A DNA stretch of 64,000 nucleotides from Bacteroidota bacterium (GTDB lineage: Bacteria; Bacteroidota; Bacteroidia; Chitinophagales; BACL12), in assembly GCA_029571985.1 (NCBI GenBank), contig JAKQVC010000058.1:9150-73149 (forward strand), read 5' to 3'. This document shows positions 53,320 through 56,025 of this stretch, one piece after another. The translations under genes and the position numbers were made by a program. Under the pieces are notes generated by a model. The model ran no database searches. It had not been told where the DNA came from and worked only from the letters and a program-made list of their open reading frames with translations. Each line of letters begins with the position of its first letter. Position 1 is the first letter of the stretch.

Positions 53320-54300
53320 ATGTCGATACCTGTTGGTGAAGAAGTGGTGATACTCGATTCGGGTATAATAGGTGTAATCCAGTATTATGATGGAAATACA
53401 GCCTGTATCCTCGCCAATGGAGAACTGCATCAGGCACATAAAAAGGATATTGCCAGAACAAATGCTTTTGGTGTCATCAACAAACCTGATGCGGATAAGA
53501 AACAATCCCACGAAAATACTTTGCCTCAGCAACGCGGTGTTATTATCCGATGGAAGGCGCCGGAATCGCCATCAGGTAGCTGGCCACATTTTGAAGTATC
53601 TATTGGTAATTATACAGAAACGGAGTTGTTATGCCAATATCAACTTTGGTTGAATGAAGAGGTGCATACTACTTTTCGAAAATCGCTGGCAAAAGGAGCA
53701 GAAGCTTTTTTACATCTTTTTAAACCCGACCAGATAAATGACAGGCCTGTGTGGTCTATTCAATGCTGGAAAAAAGATGCGCAGGGTGTAACTATTCAGG
53801 TAGCAGATCAGGAAATGAAATTGCGCGCCAAACAGTATGTTGCACGCATACAATCGCCTGAATTTCTGAATACCAGGCAACTGTTATTTGAAGTGCCCGT
53901 TACAGATGCTTCTCTTTTACAAAAACCGGTTGCAGAAAAGCCGGCCCTCCCGCAATTTGATTTTAATCAAAAAAAGAAGGTAGAGCAGCATCATGAAGTA
54001 CTGCAAAAAGCACATATGTCCGACTTCATTGATTTACATGCAGAAAAATTACTACCGGATCACCGGCATTTATCCGCAACCGAAATTTTGACCATGCAGG
54101 TGCACAGCTTTAAAAATTATCTGGAAAAAGCCATCCGGTTGCGCATGCACAAGGTGTATATTGTACACGGACATGGAAAAGGCGTACTGAAGCAGGAAAT
54201 TGAAAAAGCCCTAAAAAAATATCCAGAAGTAAGCAGTTACAACAACGACTACAACCCCAGATTCGGCTTCGGTGCCACCGAAATTATCCTCGACCCATAA
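53320..54300 (+). CDS. Smr (MutS2-like small nuclease) domain protein with a DUF2027-like N-terminal region
   Basis: The C-terminal Smr domain reads IDLH...L........A....L..F...L..A......V.I.HG.G.GVLK..I...L. Confidence 0.8.
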   Translation: MSIPVGEEVVILDSGIIGVIQYYDGNTACILANGELHQAHKKDIARTNAFGVINKPDADKKQSHENTLPQQRGVIIRWKAPESPSGSWPHFEVSIGNYTETELLCQYQLWLNEEVHTTFRKSLAKGAEAFLHLFKPDQINDRPVWSIQCWKKDAQGVTIQVADQEMKLRAKQYVARIQSPEFLNTRQLLFEVPVTDASLLQKPVAEKPALPQFDFNQKKKVEQHHEVLQKAHMSDFIDLHAEKLLPDHRHLSATEILTMQVHSFKNYLEKAIRLRMHKVYIVHGHGKGVLKQEIEKALKKYPEVSSYNNDYNPRFGFGATEIILDP

Positions 54301-54481
54301 ACCTCCCTGGCATCAACCTGTCAACATCCCAACTGCCAATACAAATAGCATCCGCGTTCACACATTTCTGCCCCACTGCGACCGCACATATTTCTTTACA
54401 CACCCACTCCACAAGAGATTAAACCGACTTCTCACCATTCACCTGTATCATTTTCAGCATTTTAGCTTCGGTTGAGCAGTT

Positions 54482-54600
54482 GTGCCGCCCCGCTGGGGCT
54501 TTTTTGGAGTGCTGTCTGTTCCTGTTAGAGGATGTGTCGCCCCGCTGGGGCTTTTTTTAGCGCTGCTTGTTTCCGCTAGTAGGTACATCGCCCTGTTGTA
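54482..54600 (+). repeat. 2 good copies plus 1 degenerate copy of a 52-bp hairpin-headed repeat (head GTGyCGCCCCGCTGGGGC followed by a T-run); the first two look like terminators
   Basis: The hairpin GCCCC-GCT-GGGGC occurs at 54487-54499 followed by T6, and at 54539-54551 followed by T7. The tails are also similar. A third, degenerate head lies near 54587. Confidence 0.85.
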
Positions 54601-54719
54601 GCTGTGTAGATCAGAGGAATTGCTATGAACAATTCAATGGGCAGTTATAAAAAGGATTTTATTCATGAATTATTGCTGACCAATTAATTGCTCGCCATAT
54701 GATCACCGTTCACAACCCA

Positions 54720-55125
54720 CAAACACCTCAATACAAGCCTCATCGAAGCAGCACACCCGCTAACTCTACAAAATAAACAAGCCTCATCGCGGCTGCACAC
54801 TCATAACCCAACCTAATCAGGTCGACACACCCACTATCTCCACAAAATAAAAATATACAAGCCTCATCTCTACAACATACTCATTACTCAGCCCCATAAA
54901 AACGACACACCCGTTAACACCTCAAAATAAAAATTACACCAGCCCCATCGGGTCGACACTCCCATTAACACCCCAAAATAAAAATTACACCAACCCCATC
55001 GGGTCGACACGCCCATTAACACCCCAAAATAAAAATTACACCAGCCCCATTGGGGCGACACACCCACTAACCCCCCAAAGTAAACCACATACAAGCCCCA
55101 TCGGGGCGGCACAACGTCCAATCTA
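54720..55125 (-). repeat. about 8 tandem copies (51-bp period; three near-identical) of the same hairpin head in the opposite orientation, with a different tail
   Basis: CGACAC recurs on the + strand at 54903, 54954, 55005 and 55056 (CGGCAC at 55107). The minus-strand unit is GTGTCGACCCGATGGGGCTGGTGTAATTTTTATTTTGGGGTGTTAATGGG. Older copies from 54735 to 54900 are degenerate. Confidence 0.9.
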
Positions 55126-55223
55126 TAACAACCCAGCCAATCGCAAACAATGACCTGCACCACGCCAAAAAGTAAAATCTCTTCCAAGCAAAAAAATCCA
55201 CCTCATAACAAACCTTTAGTCTT

Positions 55224-55300
55224 CATTCCTAATTCCTCCCTCCTCCCTCCTCCCTCCTCATTCCTCATTCCTTATTCCTCATTCCTCATTCCTCCCCCCC
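55224..55300 (+). repeat. 11 tandem heptamers (nnnTCCT: CATTCCT / CCCTCCT) ending in a C8 run
   Basis: The units read CATTCCT AATTCCT CCCTCCT x3 CATTCCT x2 TATTCCT CATTCCT x2 CCCCCCC. The tract from 55220 to 55305 is G-free and ends about 55 bp upstream of rnpB. Confidence 0.95.
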
Positions 55301-55352
55301 CAATTGCTTTTTCCCCGATTTCCGGTAATTTTATACCCGCCGTTCTTTAGAA

Positions 55353-55742
55353 TATTCCTGCAAACCGTTCTATCGCTGCCCAACCCGTTCATTCGGGGAG
55401 GGGAGAGGAAAGTCCGGATAACACAGAGCGCCGCACCACCTAACAGATGGAGGGCAGGCAACTGCTTATGGAACAGTGCCACAGAAAATTACCGTCCCGT
55501 TAAAAATGCTTGCATTTTTTTCAGGATAAGGGTGAAAACGTGAGGTAAGAGCTCACGGATATATCGGTAACGCATATATCGGGTAAACCCTGCGGGTTAC
55601 AATGCCAAATAGGCCGGAGTAAAAGAGGGGCTGCTCGCTCCAATCTTCGGCGGGTAGGCAGCAAGATCCGGATGGCAACATCCGGACTAGATAAATGATA
55701 GAAACTCAAACAGAATCCGGCTTATGAGTTTGCAGGAACTTT
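55353..55742 (+). ncRNA. rnpB: RNase P RNA, bacterial type A
   Basis: It has the conserved GAGGAAAGTCCGG (P4 5' strand) and ACAGAATCCGGCTTA (P4 3' strand). P1 pairs TTCCTGCAAAC (55355-55365) with GTTTGCAGGAA (55728-55738). Other elements include GGTAAACCC and the like. The ends are approximate, within about 5 nt. Confidence 0.9.
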
Positions 55743-55797
55743 TATAGAACATGGACAGGTATAGTGGGTAAGAAAACGATGCATAGCACAACCATGC

Positions 55798-56025
55798 ATG
55801 ATGGAACAACCTAAAAACATTTTTATTTGTCCTTTTTGTGGACATCTGACCAAAATCGTATGGGTTCACGGGCATGGTCAATGTTTGATTTGCGGCACAA
55901 CTATTGATGAATGTTGCCGGGGTGAACAGGCAAATCCTATGGACGAATCTGATTCCATCAATGAAGAAGAAATAAATCATACAAACAGCAATATAAAAAA
56001 CGACGATGAAGCAAATAACAATTAA
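55798..56025 (+). CDS. hypothetical small zinc-ribbon protein
   Basis: 75-aa ORF with CPFC...17...CLIC plus CC and an acidic tail. It overlaps the next gene by 20 nt. There is no homology support. Confidence 0.4.
   Translation: MMEQPKNIFICPFCGHLTKIVWVHGHGQCLICGTTIDECCRGEQANPMDESDSINEEEINHTNSNIKNDDEANNN

What the first reader, a model, noticed from the sequence alone, without database searches (positions are those of the whole stretch)
54482..55125. Two convergent arrays of a 51-52-bp hairpin-headed repeat in the 1-kb gap between the Smr gene and rnpB
This 1,052-bp spacer is the largest non-coding stretch in the window and holds one repeat family in both orientations. On the + strand there are 2 good copies and 1 degenerate copy (period 52/51 bp, 54482-54600). 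The head is GTGyCGCCCCGCTGGGGC, a 5-bp GC stem with a 3-nt loop, followed by T6-T7, so these look like stacked intrinsic terminators. After a ~120-bp unique centre, about 8 copies lie on the minus strand (period exactly 51 bp from 54903 to 55107). Their head is GTGTCGmCCCGATGGGGCT but the tail differs: GGTGTAATTTTTATTTTGGGGTGTTAATGGG. The three central copies differ at only about 2-3 positions. The copies nearest rnpB have perfect stems, while the copies toward 54735 decay. The arrays therefore face each other. The minus-strand array has no gene upstream of it that would need terminating, since rnpB is on the + strand. Possible roles are an insulator protecting rnpB, an expressed repeat-RNA locus, or a REP/BIME-like element. 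The 51-bp period (17 codons) keeps a 99-aa minus-strand ORF open, which is a caveat.
Basis: seen in the sequence. Interest (0 to 1): 0.7.

Follow-up and report, generated by a model that had tools for sequence, protein, structure and literature searches.

The report
REP-like hairpin repeat, locally amplified
The 1-kb gap before the RNase P RNA gene holds a local, copy-number-variable tandem expansion of a small hairpin repeat that also occurs in many other Bacteroidota genomes, so it is a REP/BIME-type repeat, not a dedicated rnpB device.

Summary
There are two good and one decayed plus-strand copies. Facing them on the minus strand are four regular 51-bp copies and about three older decayed ones. 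The head occurs six times in this gap and nowhere else in the 64-kb window (0.01 expected).

The 19-nt head (GTGYCG-CCCC-NNN-GGGG-CT; 5-bp GC stem, 3-nt loop) is not private to this locus. A scan of 185,579 species genomes found it in 19 Bacteroidota loci and one Puniceicoccales locus. These loci sit between unrelated housekeeping genes. In about half of them, mainly Hymenobacter, the heads form "2 + 2" inverted compound elements, and direct head spacing peaks at 49-53 bp. The tails between heads differ among lineages.

The window's own 51-bp unit occurs only at this locus. Otherwise identical contigs carry four or five regular units. A relative with 57% Smr identity has only a 78-bp Smr-rnpB spacer.

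My best reading is a REP/BIME/MITE-like element with one arm amplified by slippage or unequal crossing-over. Its plus-strand heads, each followed by T6-T7, probably terminate Smr transcription. There is no Rfam match, no ORF homologue, no CRISPR character and no promoter box. Association with a REP transposase could not be tested. I rate the interest as modest.

The parts
53320..54300 (+). Smr-domain gene (326 aa) immediately upstream. It is the only gene whose transcript runs into the plus-strand heads.
   Evidence: ORF. Pfam PF01713 on identical contigs. Homologues named Smr/MutS family protein, Chitinophagales.
54479..54506 (.). Left arm of the outer inverted repeat that bounds the whole repeat block. 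It pairs with 55088-55115.
   Evidence: the repeat finder pair I1: 28 nt, 89% complementary, 581 nt apart.
54482..54533 (+). Plus-strand unit 1. Head GTGCCGCCCCGCTGGGGCT, hairpin 54487-54499, then T6. Terminator-like.
   Evidence: Terminator scan. Hairpin energy -9.3 kcal/mol.
54534..54585 (+). Plus-strand unit 2. Head GTGTCGCCCCGCTGGGGCT, hairpin 54539-54551, then T7. Terminator-like. This head sequence also occurs in Hymenobacter loci.
   Evidence: Identical 19-mers listed.
54585..54603 (+). Degenerate third plus-strand head (ACATCGCCCTGTTGTAGCT). By my count about 13 of 19 positions match the head, and the stem is lost.
   Evidence: Sequence.
54604..54704 (.). Non-repeated centre between the two arms. 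It has no significant fold and contains a 20-codon ORF of doubtful meaning.
   Evidence: Sequence. Folds of 54595-54740 give z = 0.43 and -0.48.
54705..54908 (-). Older, decayed part of the minus-strand arm. Units start at 54908 (80 nt), 54828 (74 nt) and 54754. GTGTCG-type and GTGC-type head remnants alternate, and the stems are weakened.
   Evidence: TRF period 80, 2.2 copies, 74%. Families D2, D4 and D5. Register. Hairpins -4.0 to -7.0 kcal/mol.
54909..55112 (-). Young minus-strand array of four 51-bp units, starting at 55112, 55061, 55010 and 54959. The three inner units differ at 4-5 positions. Four other contigs carry one more copy of the 55010-type unit.
   Evidence: TRF period 51, 4.1 copies, 87%.. 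The 51-bp indel is the only difference among seven contigs.
55088..55115 (.). Right arm of the outer inverted repeat. It contains the outermost minus-strand head, GTGCCGCCCCGATGGGGCT.
   Evidence: the repeat finder pair I1.
54888..55187 (-). 99-aa ORF kept open by the 51-bp (17-codon) period. Judged spurious.
   Evidence: No homologue among 5.8 billion proteins. The family's periods elsewhere are 25, 46, 52, 62 and 70 bp, which are not multiples of three.
55357..55740 (+). rnpB (bacterial RNase P RNA, class A). It is a neighbour and not part of the element.
   Evidence: Rfam RF00010, 247.3 bits. In the relative with 57% Smr identity it starts 78 bp after Smr, with no repeats in between.

Best explanation
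The block 54479-55115 is a local, amplified copy of a REP/BIME/MITE-like palindromic repeat family that is widespread in Bacteroidota.

The family's conserved module is a 19-nt head, RTGYCG-CCCC-NNN-GGGG-CT. As single-stranded DNA or RNA it folds into a 5-bp G:C hairpin with a 3-nt loop, carrying an unpaired GTGYC tag on its 5' side. In about half of the other loci, mainly Hymenobacter, the element consists of two direct heads about 51 bp apart, a short centre, and two more heads in inverted orientation. It sits in intergenic DNA, often between convergent genes.

In this Chitinophagales genome one such element lies between Smr and rnpB.
- The plus-strand arm kept two heads, each followed by T6-T7. 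These most likely act as tandem intrinsic terminators for Smr. This step is inferred from sequence.
- The other arm was enlarged by replication slippage or unequal crossing-over between its direct heads. This step is inferred from the period, from the near-identity of the central units and from the copy-number difference. An 80-bp unit appears to have duplicated first and then decayed. The 51-bp unit amplified later, and otherwise identical contigs now carry four or five regular copies of it.

The array as such probably has no sequence-specific role for rnpB. At most it adds hairpins that would impede antisense or read-through transcription.

How heads spread between loci is not shown. A hairpin-recognising Y1 (REP-associated) transposase is the obvious candidate, but it was not tested.
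For: 1. The repeats are real and non-random.

2. A search of one genome per species for two direct heads 20-50 nt apart gave 24 loci. Nineteen are Bacteroidota (Hymenobacter x9, Saprospiraceae, Flavobacteriales, Chitinophagaceae, Telluribacter, Bacteroidia) and one is Puniceicoccales. I estimated essentially no chance matches for this pattern.

3. At positions the pattern left free, these loci still agree. C at +6 is found in 107 of 108 heads and T at +18 in 104 of 108.

4. Three assemblies carry the element on two separate contigs (L017/L034, L023/L027, L025/L038). By my reading of the sequences, two of those pairs share outer inverted ends: TAGGACTTACGCA, and AAGTTGCGGNCTA.

5. The architecture is the same: 2 + 2 inverted heads, sometimes expanded into tandem arrays with periods of 25, 46, 51 or 70 bp. 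Of 66 neighbouring direct-head distances, 31 fall at 49-53 bp, matching the window's 51 and 52.

6. The 57 neighbouring ORFs belong to unrelated housekeeping families. Six of nine Hymenobacter elements lie between convergent ORFs.

7. Amplification is local. The junction of the lineage-specific tail and head occurs in the metagenome collection only at this locus (L050, L052). The seven other hits lack the hairpin.

8. Change is recent or ongoing. Seven contigs that encode the identical Smr differ only by one 51-bp unit, and three contigs break inside the array.

9. The block is lineage-specific. The relative with 57% Smr identity has conserved synteny but a 78-bp spacer. In the relative with 80% identity, the contig that ends after Smr and the contig that starts before rnpB both stop in a (CCCACTCA)n microsatellite, with no head seen.

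10. The plus-strand heads meet the terminator criteria, and they are the only terminator-like sites found downstream of Smr in the scan.
Against: - No other head copy exists in the 64-kb window or in about 11 kb of the relative with 57% Smr identity. Dispersal within the source genome itself is therefore not shown.
- The family loci were found by searching with the window's own head pattern, so conservation of the specified positions is partly built in.
- The head lacks the GT[AG]G foot of canonical REPs. It matches none of the 'atypical' Bacteroidetes REPs listed by Quentin et al. 2018 (PMC6006769, Table S1).
- No REP-associated transposase was seen. A tblastn with a RAYT sequence recalled from memory found nothing in the held DNA, which is a weak test.
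- The 4-versus-5 copy difference could be assembly collapse rather than true polymorphism.
- Terminator activity is inferred from sequence only. The stem is short (5 bp).
Confidence: 0.72

Rival explanations
1. The repeats are purpose-built stacked intrinsic terminators forming a bidirectional insulator. They evolved in place to shield rnpB from Smr read-through and from antisense transcription.
For: Both plus-strand heads are canonical hairpin + T6/T7 sites. With G-U pairs, two minus-strand units also pass the terminator scan: 55010 (10-pair stem followed by AATTTTTATT) and 55107. In Hymenobacter elements the inner heads are often followed by short T runs, and the elements lie between convergent genes.
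Against: - The 5' tag GTGYC and the exact stem sequence are conserved across orders, which goes beyond what termination requires.
- No minus-strand gene lies upstream of the minus-strand array.
- The most recently amplified units have weakened stems, with an A-G mismatch and -5.2 kcal/mol.
- The syntenic relative manages with a 78-bp spacer.
- Copy number varies.
- The motif terminates no other gene in the 64-kb window.
Confidence: 0.12
2. The heads, held at a ~51-bp spacing (about five helical turns), are an array of binding sites for a conserved Bacteroidota DNA-binding protein. That protein could be nucleoid-associated, gyrase-like as at E. coli BIMEs, or a domesticated transposase. On this view the array is a structural chromosome element.
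For: Head spacing is conserved at 49-53 bp across genera while the intervening sequence is not. The stem sequence is invariant and the loop is variable.
Against: - No protein partner has been identified.
- Arrays with 25-, 46-, 62- and 70-bp periods also exist.
- The spacing could simply be inherited from a common ancestral element.
- Many of the loci are related Hymenobacter genomes, so they are not independent samples.
Confidence: 0.1
3. The minus-strand array is an expressed repeat-RNA or small-RNA locus, with each unit giving a hairpin RNA.
For: The units carry a hairpin followed by a U-rich stretch on the minus strand.
Against: - There is no TAnnTTTG -7 box on either strand of 54300-55400.
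- The sigma-70-type scan found no more sites than shuffled sequence gives (7 found, 8.9 expected), and none lies in the array.
- Folds are no better than shuffles on the minus strand (z = -0.75 and -0.69).
- Rfam gives no hit at E <= 10.
- The array is not conserved in relatives.
Confidence: 0.04
4. The 99-aa (or 116-aa) minus-strand ORF encodes a real repeat protein.
For: The ORF is open across the 17-codon period. It was called as a 116-residue gene in JGI contigs.
Against: - No homologue was found in 5.8 billion proteins, and the called gene has no Pfam hit.
- The older units of the same array are closed by stops.
- The same repeat family has periods of 52, 25, 46, 62 and 70 bp elsewhere.
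- The plus-strand arm is the same sequence family but is non-coding.
Confidence: 0.02

Closest known systems
REP / BIME elements and REPINs (repetitive extragenic palindromes; E. coli, Pseudomonas and others)
   Same: Both are short GC-rich hairpins with an unpaired conserved tag at one side. Both are multi-copy and intergenic, often lie at 3' ends of genes or between convergent genes, and are organised as inverted pairs that can fold into a larger hairpin. Both sometimes form clusters, and both have proposed roles in termination and mRNA stabilisation (general knowledge; PMC3733652 and PMC6006769).
   Different: - The tag is GTGYC, not GT[AG]G.
- The stem is only 5 bp, with a 3-nt loop.
- Each arm is a head-to-tail (direct) dimer with ~51-bp spacing. 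[quoted passage not shown]
- No RAYT association has been shown.
CGTC-tagged REP superfamily (Di Nocera et al. 2013, PMC3733652)
   Same: The tag is sometimes TGTC. The superfamily occurs in Bacteroidetes (Gramella forsetii), lacks a dedicated transposase, and forms inverted dimers.
   Different: CGTC families have 8-9-bp stems with A-T pairs at the first two positions, 4-5-nt loops and a CCA tail. Here the stem is 5 G:C pairs, the loop is 3 nt, and the base after the stem is T.
'Atypical' REPs flanking RAYT subclass 2.6 (Bertels group 5) in Bacteroidetes (Quentin et al. 2018, PMC6006769)
   Same: Same phylum, no GT[AG]G foot, 3-nt loops, GC-rich stems. Some begin GCTGTCGC..., which resembles GTGTCGC.
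   Different: None of the listed sequences equals the head. The listed stems are 8-10 bp. Association of this head with a subclass 2.6 gene has not been tested.
MITEs with structured ends (for example Correia/NEMIS elements, RUP, ERIC)
   Same: In Hymenobacter the whole ~200-bp compound element recurs at different loci of one genome with shared outer inverted ends.
   Different: No target-site duplication or parent transposon was identified. In the window, no outer inverted ends extend clearly beyond the heads.
Bacterial minisatellites / VNTR loci
   Same: Both are tandem units of tens of bp. Copy number differs between otherwise identical sequences, the central units are homogenised and the edge units decayed.
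   Different: The unit here is built on a phylum-wide hairpin module, not on arbitrary sequence.

Membership tests
REP / BIME / REPIN (canonical, RAYT-associated) | Short imperfect palindrome able to form a stem-loop | tested here: met
   The stem is 5 G:C pairs with a 3-nt loop, -9.3 kcal/mol. The same hairpin occurs in 108 heads from other genomes.
REP / BIME / REPIN (canonical, RAYT-associated) | Many copies dispersed in intergenic regions of one genome | tested here: inconclusive
   Other genomes: separate contigs of the same assembly carry the element (L017/L034, L023/L027, L025/L038), always outside long ORFs. Source genome: only this locus is visible in 64 kb. The rest of that genome could not be scanned.
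REP / BIME / REPIN (canonical, RAYT-associated) | Inverted pairs of units (REPIN/BIME organisation) | tested here: met
   The window's two arms are inverted (I1-I3). 2 + 2 inverted heads are seen in the Hymenobacter, Saprospiraceae and Chitinophagaceae loci.
REP / BIME / REPIN (canonical, RAYT-associated) | Conserved 5' GT[AG]G tetranucleotide at the foot of the stem | tested here: not met
   The foot is GTGYC(G). In Hymenobacter a GGTAG box lies about 8 nt from the outer heads, on the opposite side. The window has no such box.
REP / BIME / REPIN (canonical, RAYT-associated) | Cognate RAYT (Y1 transposase) gene flanked by the repeats (REPtron) | not testable with these tools
No head flanks any gene other than Smr and rnpB in the window. 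A tblastn with a recalled E. coli RAYT found nothing in the held DNA, which is a weak test.
CGTC-tagged REP superfamily | CGTC (or TGTC/CCTC) tag, 8-9-bp stem starting with two A-T pairs, 4-5-nt loop, CCA tail | tested here: not met
   Only the TGTC-like tag fits. The stem is 5 G:C pairs, the loop 3 nt, and the next base is T (compared with PMC3733652).
Intrinsic (Rho-independent) terminator | GC-rich hairpin immediately followed by a T run, downstream of a gene on the same strand | tested here: met
   This is met for the two plus-strand heads only: 54487-54499 + T6 and 54539-54551 + T7, lying 187 and 239 nt after the Smr stop. Activity itself was not tested.
CRISPR array | Identical repeats separated by unique spacers of similar length, usually with cas genes | tested here: not met
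   The inter-head 'spacers' are near-identical to each other (4-5 differences per 51 nt). Related arrays have 25-bp periods with no room for a spacer. None of the family matches listed for the window's ORFs is a cas family, although only the top 25 families were shown.
Rfam structured RNA families | Match to a curated covariance model | tested here: not met
   No hit at E <= 10 in 54300-55360. Five family loci gave no relevant hit at E <= 1.

The most novel reading that the evidence does not exclude
The GTGYC-tagged 19-nt hairpin head, arranged as head-to-tail dimers at a conserved ~51-bp spacing and mirrored into 2 + 2 compound elements, defines a phylum-wide and so far uncatalogued REP-like superfamily of Bacteroidota. 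On this reading it has its own recognition protein, for example a subclass 2.6 RAYT or a nucleoid protein that reads the spacing. The window's polymorphic array would then be an active amplification of that system, not a dead relic.
Probability: 0.3. Interest if true: 0.55.

Novelty: new member of a known kind. Interest (0 to 1): 0.35.

Why it matters
For this window, the largest non-coding stretch is explained as repeat DNA, with no need for a new rnpB-linked device or an RNA gene. It also flags a variable-number tandem repeat that breaks short-read assemblies and generates a false 99-116-aa gene call.

More broadly, the head appears to mark a REP-like family shared by Cytophagales, Chitinophagales, Saprospirales and Flavobacteriales. 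I could not find it in Rfam or in the two REP catalogues I could read. If a cognate protein exists, Bacteroidota would gain a REP system comparable to the proteobacterial one. The conserved ~51-bp head spacing would then be a testable clue to how the heads are recognised.

Tried and rejected
- **Replication origin or terminus.** Cumulative GC skew shows no switch at the locus, only a local C/A-rich strand bias. Rejected.
- **Structured RNA.** Rfam at gathering threshold and at E <= 10 gave nothing in the spacer. Only the plus-strand read of the array folds better than shuffles (z = -2.7), and that comes from pairing between heads.
- **Promoters.** There is no TAnnTTTG box in 54300-55400 on either strand. 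Sigma-70-type hits were no more frequent than in shuffled sequence.
- **Coding ORF.** No homologue was found.
- **CRISPR.** Rejected on spacer identity and on the 25-bp arrays seen elsewhere.
- **Mobile 51-bp unit.** The metagenome scan for the tail-head junction found only this locus.
- **Tail homology.** The tails show no detectable homology to the Chitinophagaceae 26-R-25 element (z <= 1.8).
- **Phage or plasmid origin.** There were 0 arrays in IMG/VR. PLSDB gave no matches at E <= 0.01, and only unrelated-looking short hits (no Hymenobacter record) at E <= 10.
- **RAYT.** A tblastn with a recalled E. coli sequence found nothing (weak test). The top 25 Pfam families of 57 neighbouring ORFs included no transposase (incomplete listing).
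- **Closest relatives.** I tried to read the array in relatives with 81%, 80% and 67% Smr identity. Their contigs all stop 36-217 bp after Smr inside other short tandem repeats, and two of the three contig sets anchored on the downstream gene stop inside or just after rnpB. Only the 80% relative could be bridged.
- **Actinomycete hits** from the genome scan are unrelated high-GC tandem repeats.
- **Literature.** No paper in the library contains the head sequence in a relevant context, and none links Hymenobacter with REPs in a relevant way.
Full report
**1. What is in the sequence**

The gap between the Smr-domain gene (53320-54300, +) and rnpB (55357-55740, +; Rfam RF00010, 247 bits) is 1056 bp. 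It belongs to the longest stretch of the window without an ORF of 100 aa or more.

On the plus strand there are two good units. They start at 54482 and 54534 and are 52 bp apart. Each begins with GTGYCGCCCCGCTGGGGC followed by T6 or T7. A decayed third head lies at 54585.

On the minus strand, four regular 51-bp units start at 55112, 55061, 55010 and 54959. TRF reports period 51, 4.1 copies and 87% matches. The three inner units differ at 4-5 positions and the outermost at 12-13.

Further in, units starting at 54908, 54828 and 54754 have 80- and 74-bp spacing (TRF period 80). Each long unit carries two head remnants, one GTGTCG-type and one GTGC-type, both with weakened stems.

The outermost heads of the two arms form a 28-nt inverted repeat that is 89% complementary. 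The head pattern with up to two mismatches occurs six times, all here, against 0.01 expected. A looser hairpin pattern finds no other copy in the 64 kb.

**2. Source organism and variation at the locus**

The window comes from a Chitinophagales MAG (GCA_035904245.1). The same Smr protein is also encoded on other metagenome contigs, some of them from samples I recognise from memory as anaerobic digesters. The window is ordinary chromosome, with DnaE, ClpB and T9SS genes.

Seven contigs that encode the identical Smr were compared across the gap.
- They are identical base for base, apart from one extra 51-bp unit.
- The extra unit is a second copy of the 55010-type unit. It is present in four contigs and absent in two contigs plus the window.
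- A seventh contig breaks inside the array. Two further metagenome contigs also break there.

This indicates either a true copy-number polymorphism or assembly collapse of a tandem repeat. Either way the array is unstable to sequence assembly, and probably unstable in vivo.

**3. Relatives**

A Chitinophagales relative with 57% Smr identity keeps the whole gene order: PGM, DUF2279, methyltransferase, Smr, rnpB, 75-aa ORF, MORN-like gene, NtrC-type regulator. Its rnpB starts only 78 bp after Smr and there are no heads.

Closer relatives (81%, 80% and 67% Smr identity) have contigs that stop 36-217 bp after Smr, inside other short tandem repeats:
- (GTGYCGAC)n in the 81% relative.
- (CCCACTCA)n plus TCATTCC-like repeats in the 80% relative.
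- A polymorphic (GTAA)n in the 67% relative.

For the 80% relative, the contig that carries rnpB starts in the same (CCCACTCA)n. Its spacer is therefore bridged by a microsatellite, and no hairpin array is seen.

So the spacer is a fast-evolving, repeat-prone region, and the hairpin arrays are specific to this lineage.

**4. The head is a phylum-wide module**

I scanned one genome per species (185,579 species) for two direct heads 20-50 nt apart. I estimated essentially no chance matches for this pattern. The scan gave 24 loci. Four are unrelated high-GC tandem repeats in actinomycetes. The other twenty are Bacteroidota (Hymenobacter x9, Saprospiraceae x3, Flavobacteriales x2, Chitinophagaceae, Telluribacter, unclassified Bacteroidia/Bacteroidota x3) plus one Puniceicoccales.

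Across 108 heads from these loci the consensus is RTGYCG-CCCC-[G/T][C/A]T-GGGG-CT. It holds even at positions my pattern left free: C at +6 in 107 of 108, and T at +18 in 104 of 108. The loop varies and the stem does not. Several heads are identical to the window's.

In Hymenobacter the element has this layout: outer head, a GGTAG box, about 25 variable nt, inner head, a 10-25-nt centre, then the mirror image. By my reading of the sequences, two loci of the same genome share outer inverted ends, in two separate cases (L017/L034 and L023/L027). That is, whole-element copies behave like MITEs.

Elsewhere the head is expanded into tandem arrays with these periods:
- 25 bp (L024, L029)
- 46 bp (L016)
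- 51 bp (L033)
- about 70 bp (L028)
- a 2.5-kb island with at least 27 heads (L021)

Distances between neighbouring direct heads peak sharply at 49-53 bp, which accounts for 31 of 66 distances. This matches the window's 51 and 52 bp. The sequence between heads is not conserved.

The 57 flanking ORFs belong to unrelated housekeeping families. Six of nine Hymenobacter elements lie between convergent ORFs. No such array occurs in 2.9 million viral contigs or in PLSDB plasmids.

**5. The window's unit is local**

The junction of the lineage-specific tail with the next head (TTTGNRGNGNTARYGGGNGTGTCG) was searched in the metagenome collection. Only two true hits appeared, and both are this same locus. 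The seven others lack the hairpin. The 51-bp unit is therefore not itself a dispersed element, and the array arose in place.

**6. Explanation**

The simplest account has three steps.
- A 2 + 2 compound element of this family sat downstream of Smr. The Chitinophagaceae 26-R-25 locus has the same orientation of heads as the window.
- Each arm offered two identical 19-nt heads about 51 bp apart. That is an ideal substrate for slipped-strand mispairing or unequal crossing-over, which generates tandem arrays whose period equals the head spacing.
- One arm amplified in two rounds. An 80-bp outer-plus-inner unit amplified first and has since decayed. The 51-bp inner unit amplified later and is still nearly homogeneous and variable in number.

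The other arm stayed at two heads. These carry T6/T7 and are the only terminator-like sites found after Smr in the scan. I infer that they terminate Smr transcription.

The minus-strand units have no gene upstream. The most recently amplified ones carry an A-G mismatch in the stem, and one of them folds at only -5.2 kcal/mol. This argues against selection for hairpin strength.

The steps shown are: family membership of the head, the shared architecture and spacing, local origin of the unit, the copy-number difference, and absence in a syntenic relative. The steps inferred are: the amplification mechanism, terminator activity, and the way heads spread between loci.

**7. Rivals**

- *Purpose-built insulator.* Weakened by non-conservation, variable copy number and the phylum-wide tag.
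- *Repeat RNA.* No promoter box was found, there is no Rfam match, and minus-strand folds are no better than shuffles.
- *Coding ORF.* No homologue was found, and the family has periods that are not multiples of three elsewhere.
- *CRISPR.* Excluded by near-identical 'spacers' and by the 25-bp arrays.
- *Protein-binding platform.* The conserved spacing with non-conserved intervening sequence leaves this open. It is the basis of the most novel reading.

**8. Comparison with known systems**

The element behaves like REP/BIME/REPIN elements. It is a short tagged hairpin, intergenic, forms inverted pairs and clusters, and lies near gene 3' ends.

It fails the canonical membership test on the GT[AG]G foot. 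It does not fit the CGTC-tagged families, which have 8-9-bp stems, 4-5-nt loops and a CCA tail (PMC3733652).

Bacteroidetes are known to have a phylum-specific RAYT subclass (2.6) with 'atypical' REPs (PMC6006769). None of the sequences in that paper's Table S1 equals this head.

Head-to-tail dimers are described as rare in REP families, yet they are the rule here.

I file the element as a new member of a known kind, meaning REP-like palindromic repeats that are locally amplified into a VNTR. I could not find a prior description in Rfam or in the searchable literature.

**9. Verdict**

The finding is a real and well-described repeat structure. The idea of stacked terminators holds only for the plus-strand pair. 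There is no support for a dedicated rnpB function. Interest is modest at 0.35. The wider family and its conserved spacing are the part worth following up.

Noticed in passing
window 55223-55294: A (TCATTCC)n 7-bp repeat of about 10 copies, with an overlapping (CCTC)n run and a C8 tract, ends about 60 bp upstream of rnpB. The relative with 80% Smr identity has TCATTCC-like and (CCCACTCA)n repeats in the same spacer (L009 end, L040 start). The whole stretch 54700-55300 is strongly C/A-rich on the plus strand (GC skew -0.22 for 54001-56000).
   Followed up: partly
L008 5982-6017; L010 2595-2717 and L011 1385-1511: Sister lineages carry other tandem repeats right after the Smr stop. The 81% relative has (GTGTCGAC/GTGCCGAC)n, which is the 5' tag of the head repeated as an 8-mer. 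The 67% relative has a (GTAA)n-type microsatellite that differs between two samples. All of these contigs end there.
   Followed up: partly
window 55798-56025 (+): A 75-aa ORF with two CxxC pairs (zinc-ribbon-like) starts just after rnpB and overlaps the start of the 272-aa MORN-like gene. A 73-aa counterpart is called at the same place in the relative with 57% Smr identity (L012 6457-6678).
   Followed up: no
window 54626-54688 (+): A 20-codon ORF (MNNSMGSYKKDFIHELLLTN) lies in the non-repeated centre between the two arms, preceded by AGAGGAA. It is probably meaningless, and conservation could not be checked.
   Followed up: no
L021 1440-4000 (Saprospiraceae MAG JANMMV010000343.1): A 2.5-kb intergenic island holds at least 27 heads of the same family. 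They are organised as repeated ~450-bp blocks of two heads in one orientation and two or three in the other.
   Followed up: partly
L016 4321-4900; L024 7792-7975; L029 7330-7700; L033 3550-3950: These are pure tandem arrays of the head with periods of 46, 25, 25 and 51 bp in Flavobacteriales and Bacteroidia MAGs. The 25-bp arrays are essentially back-to-back hairpins.
   Followed up: partly
L028 3999-4500 (Puniceicoccales MAG): The same head (GTGCCGCCCCTTTGGGGCT) occurs outside Bacteroidota. There it is interleaved with a second palindrome (CCCAGGGCGTTGCCCTGGG) at a 64-71-bp period. This could reflect horizontal spread or convergence.
   Followed up: no
L040 1-600, L041 1-310 (Logan contigs of close relatives): Two of the three contig sets anchored on the MORN-like gene begin inside or just after rnpB; L040 instead begins about 50 bp upstream of rnpB, in the (CCCACTCA)n repeat. 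I think the breaks in rnpB arise because rnpB is shared between co-occurring strains and splits the assembly graph. This limited the comparison.
   Followed up: yes
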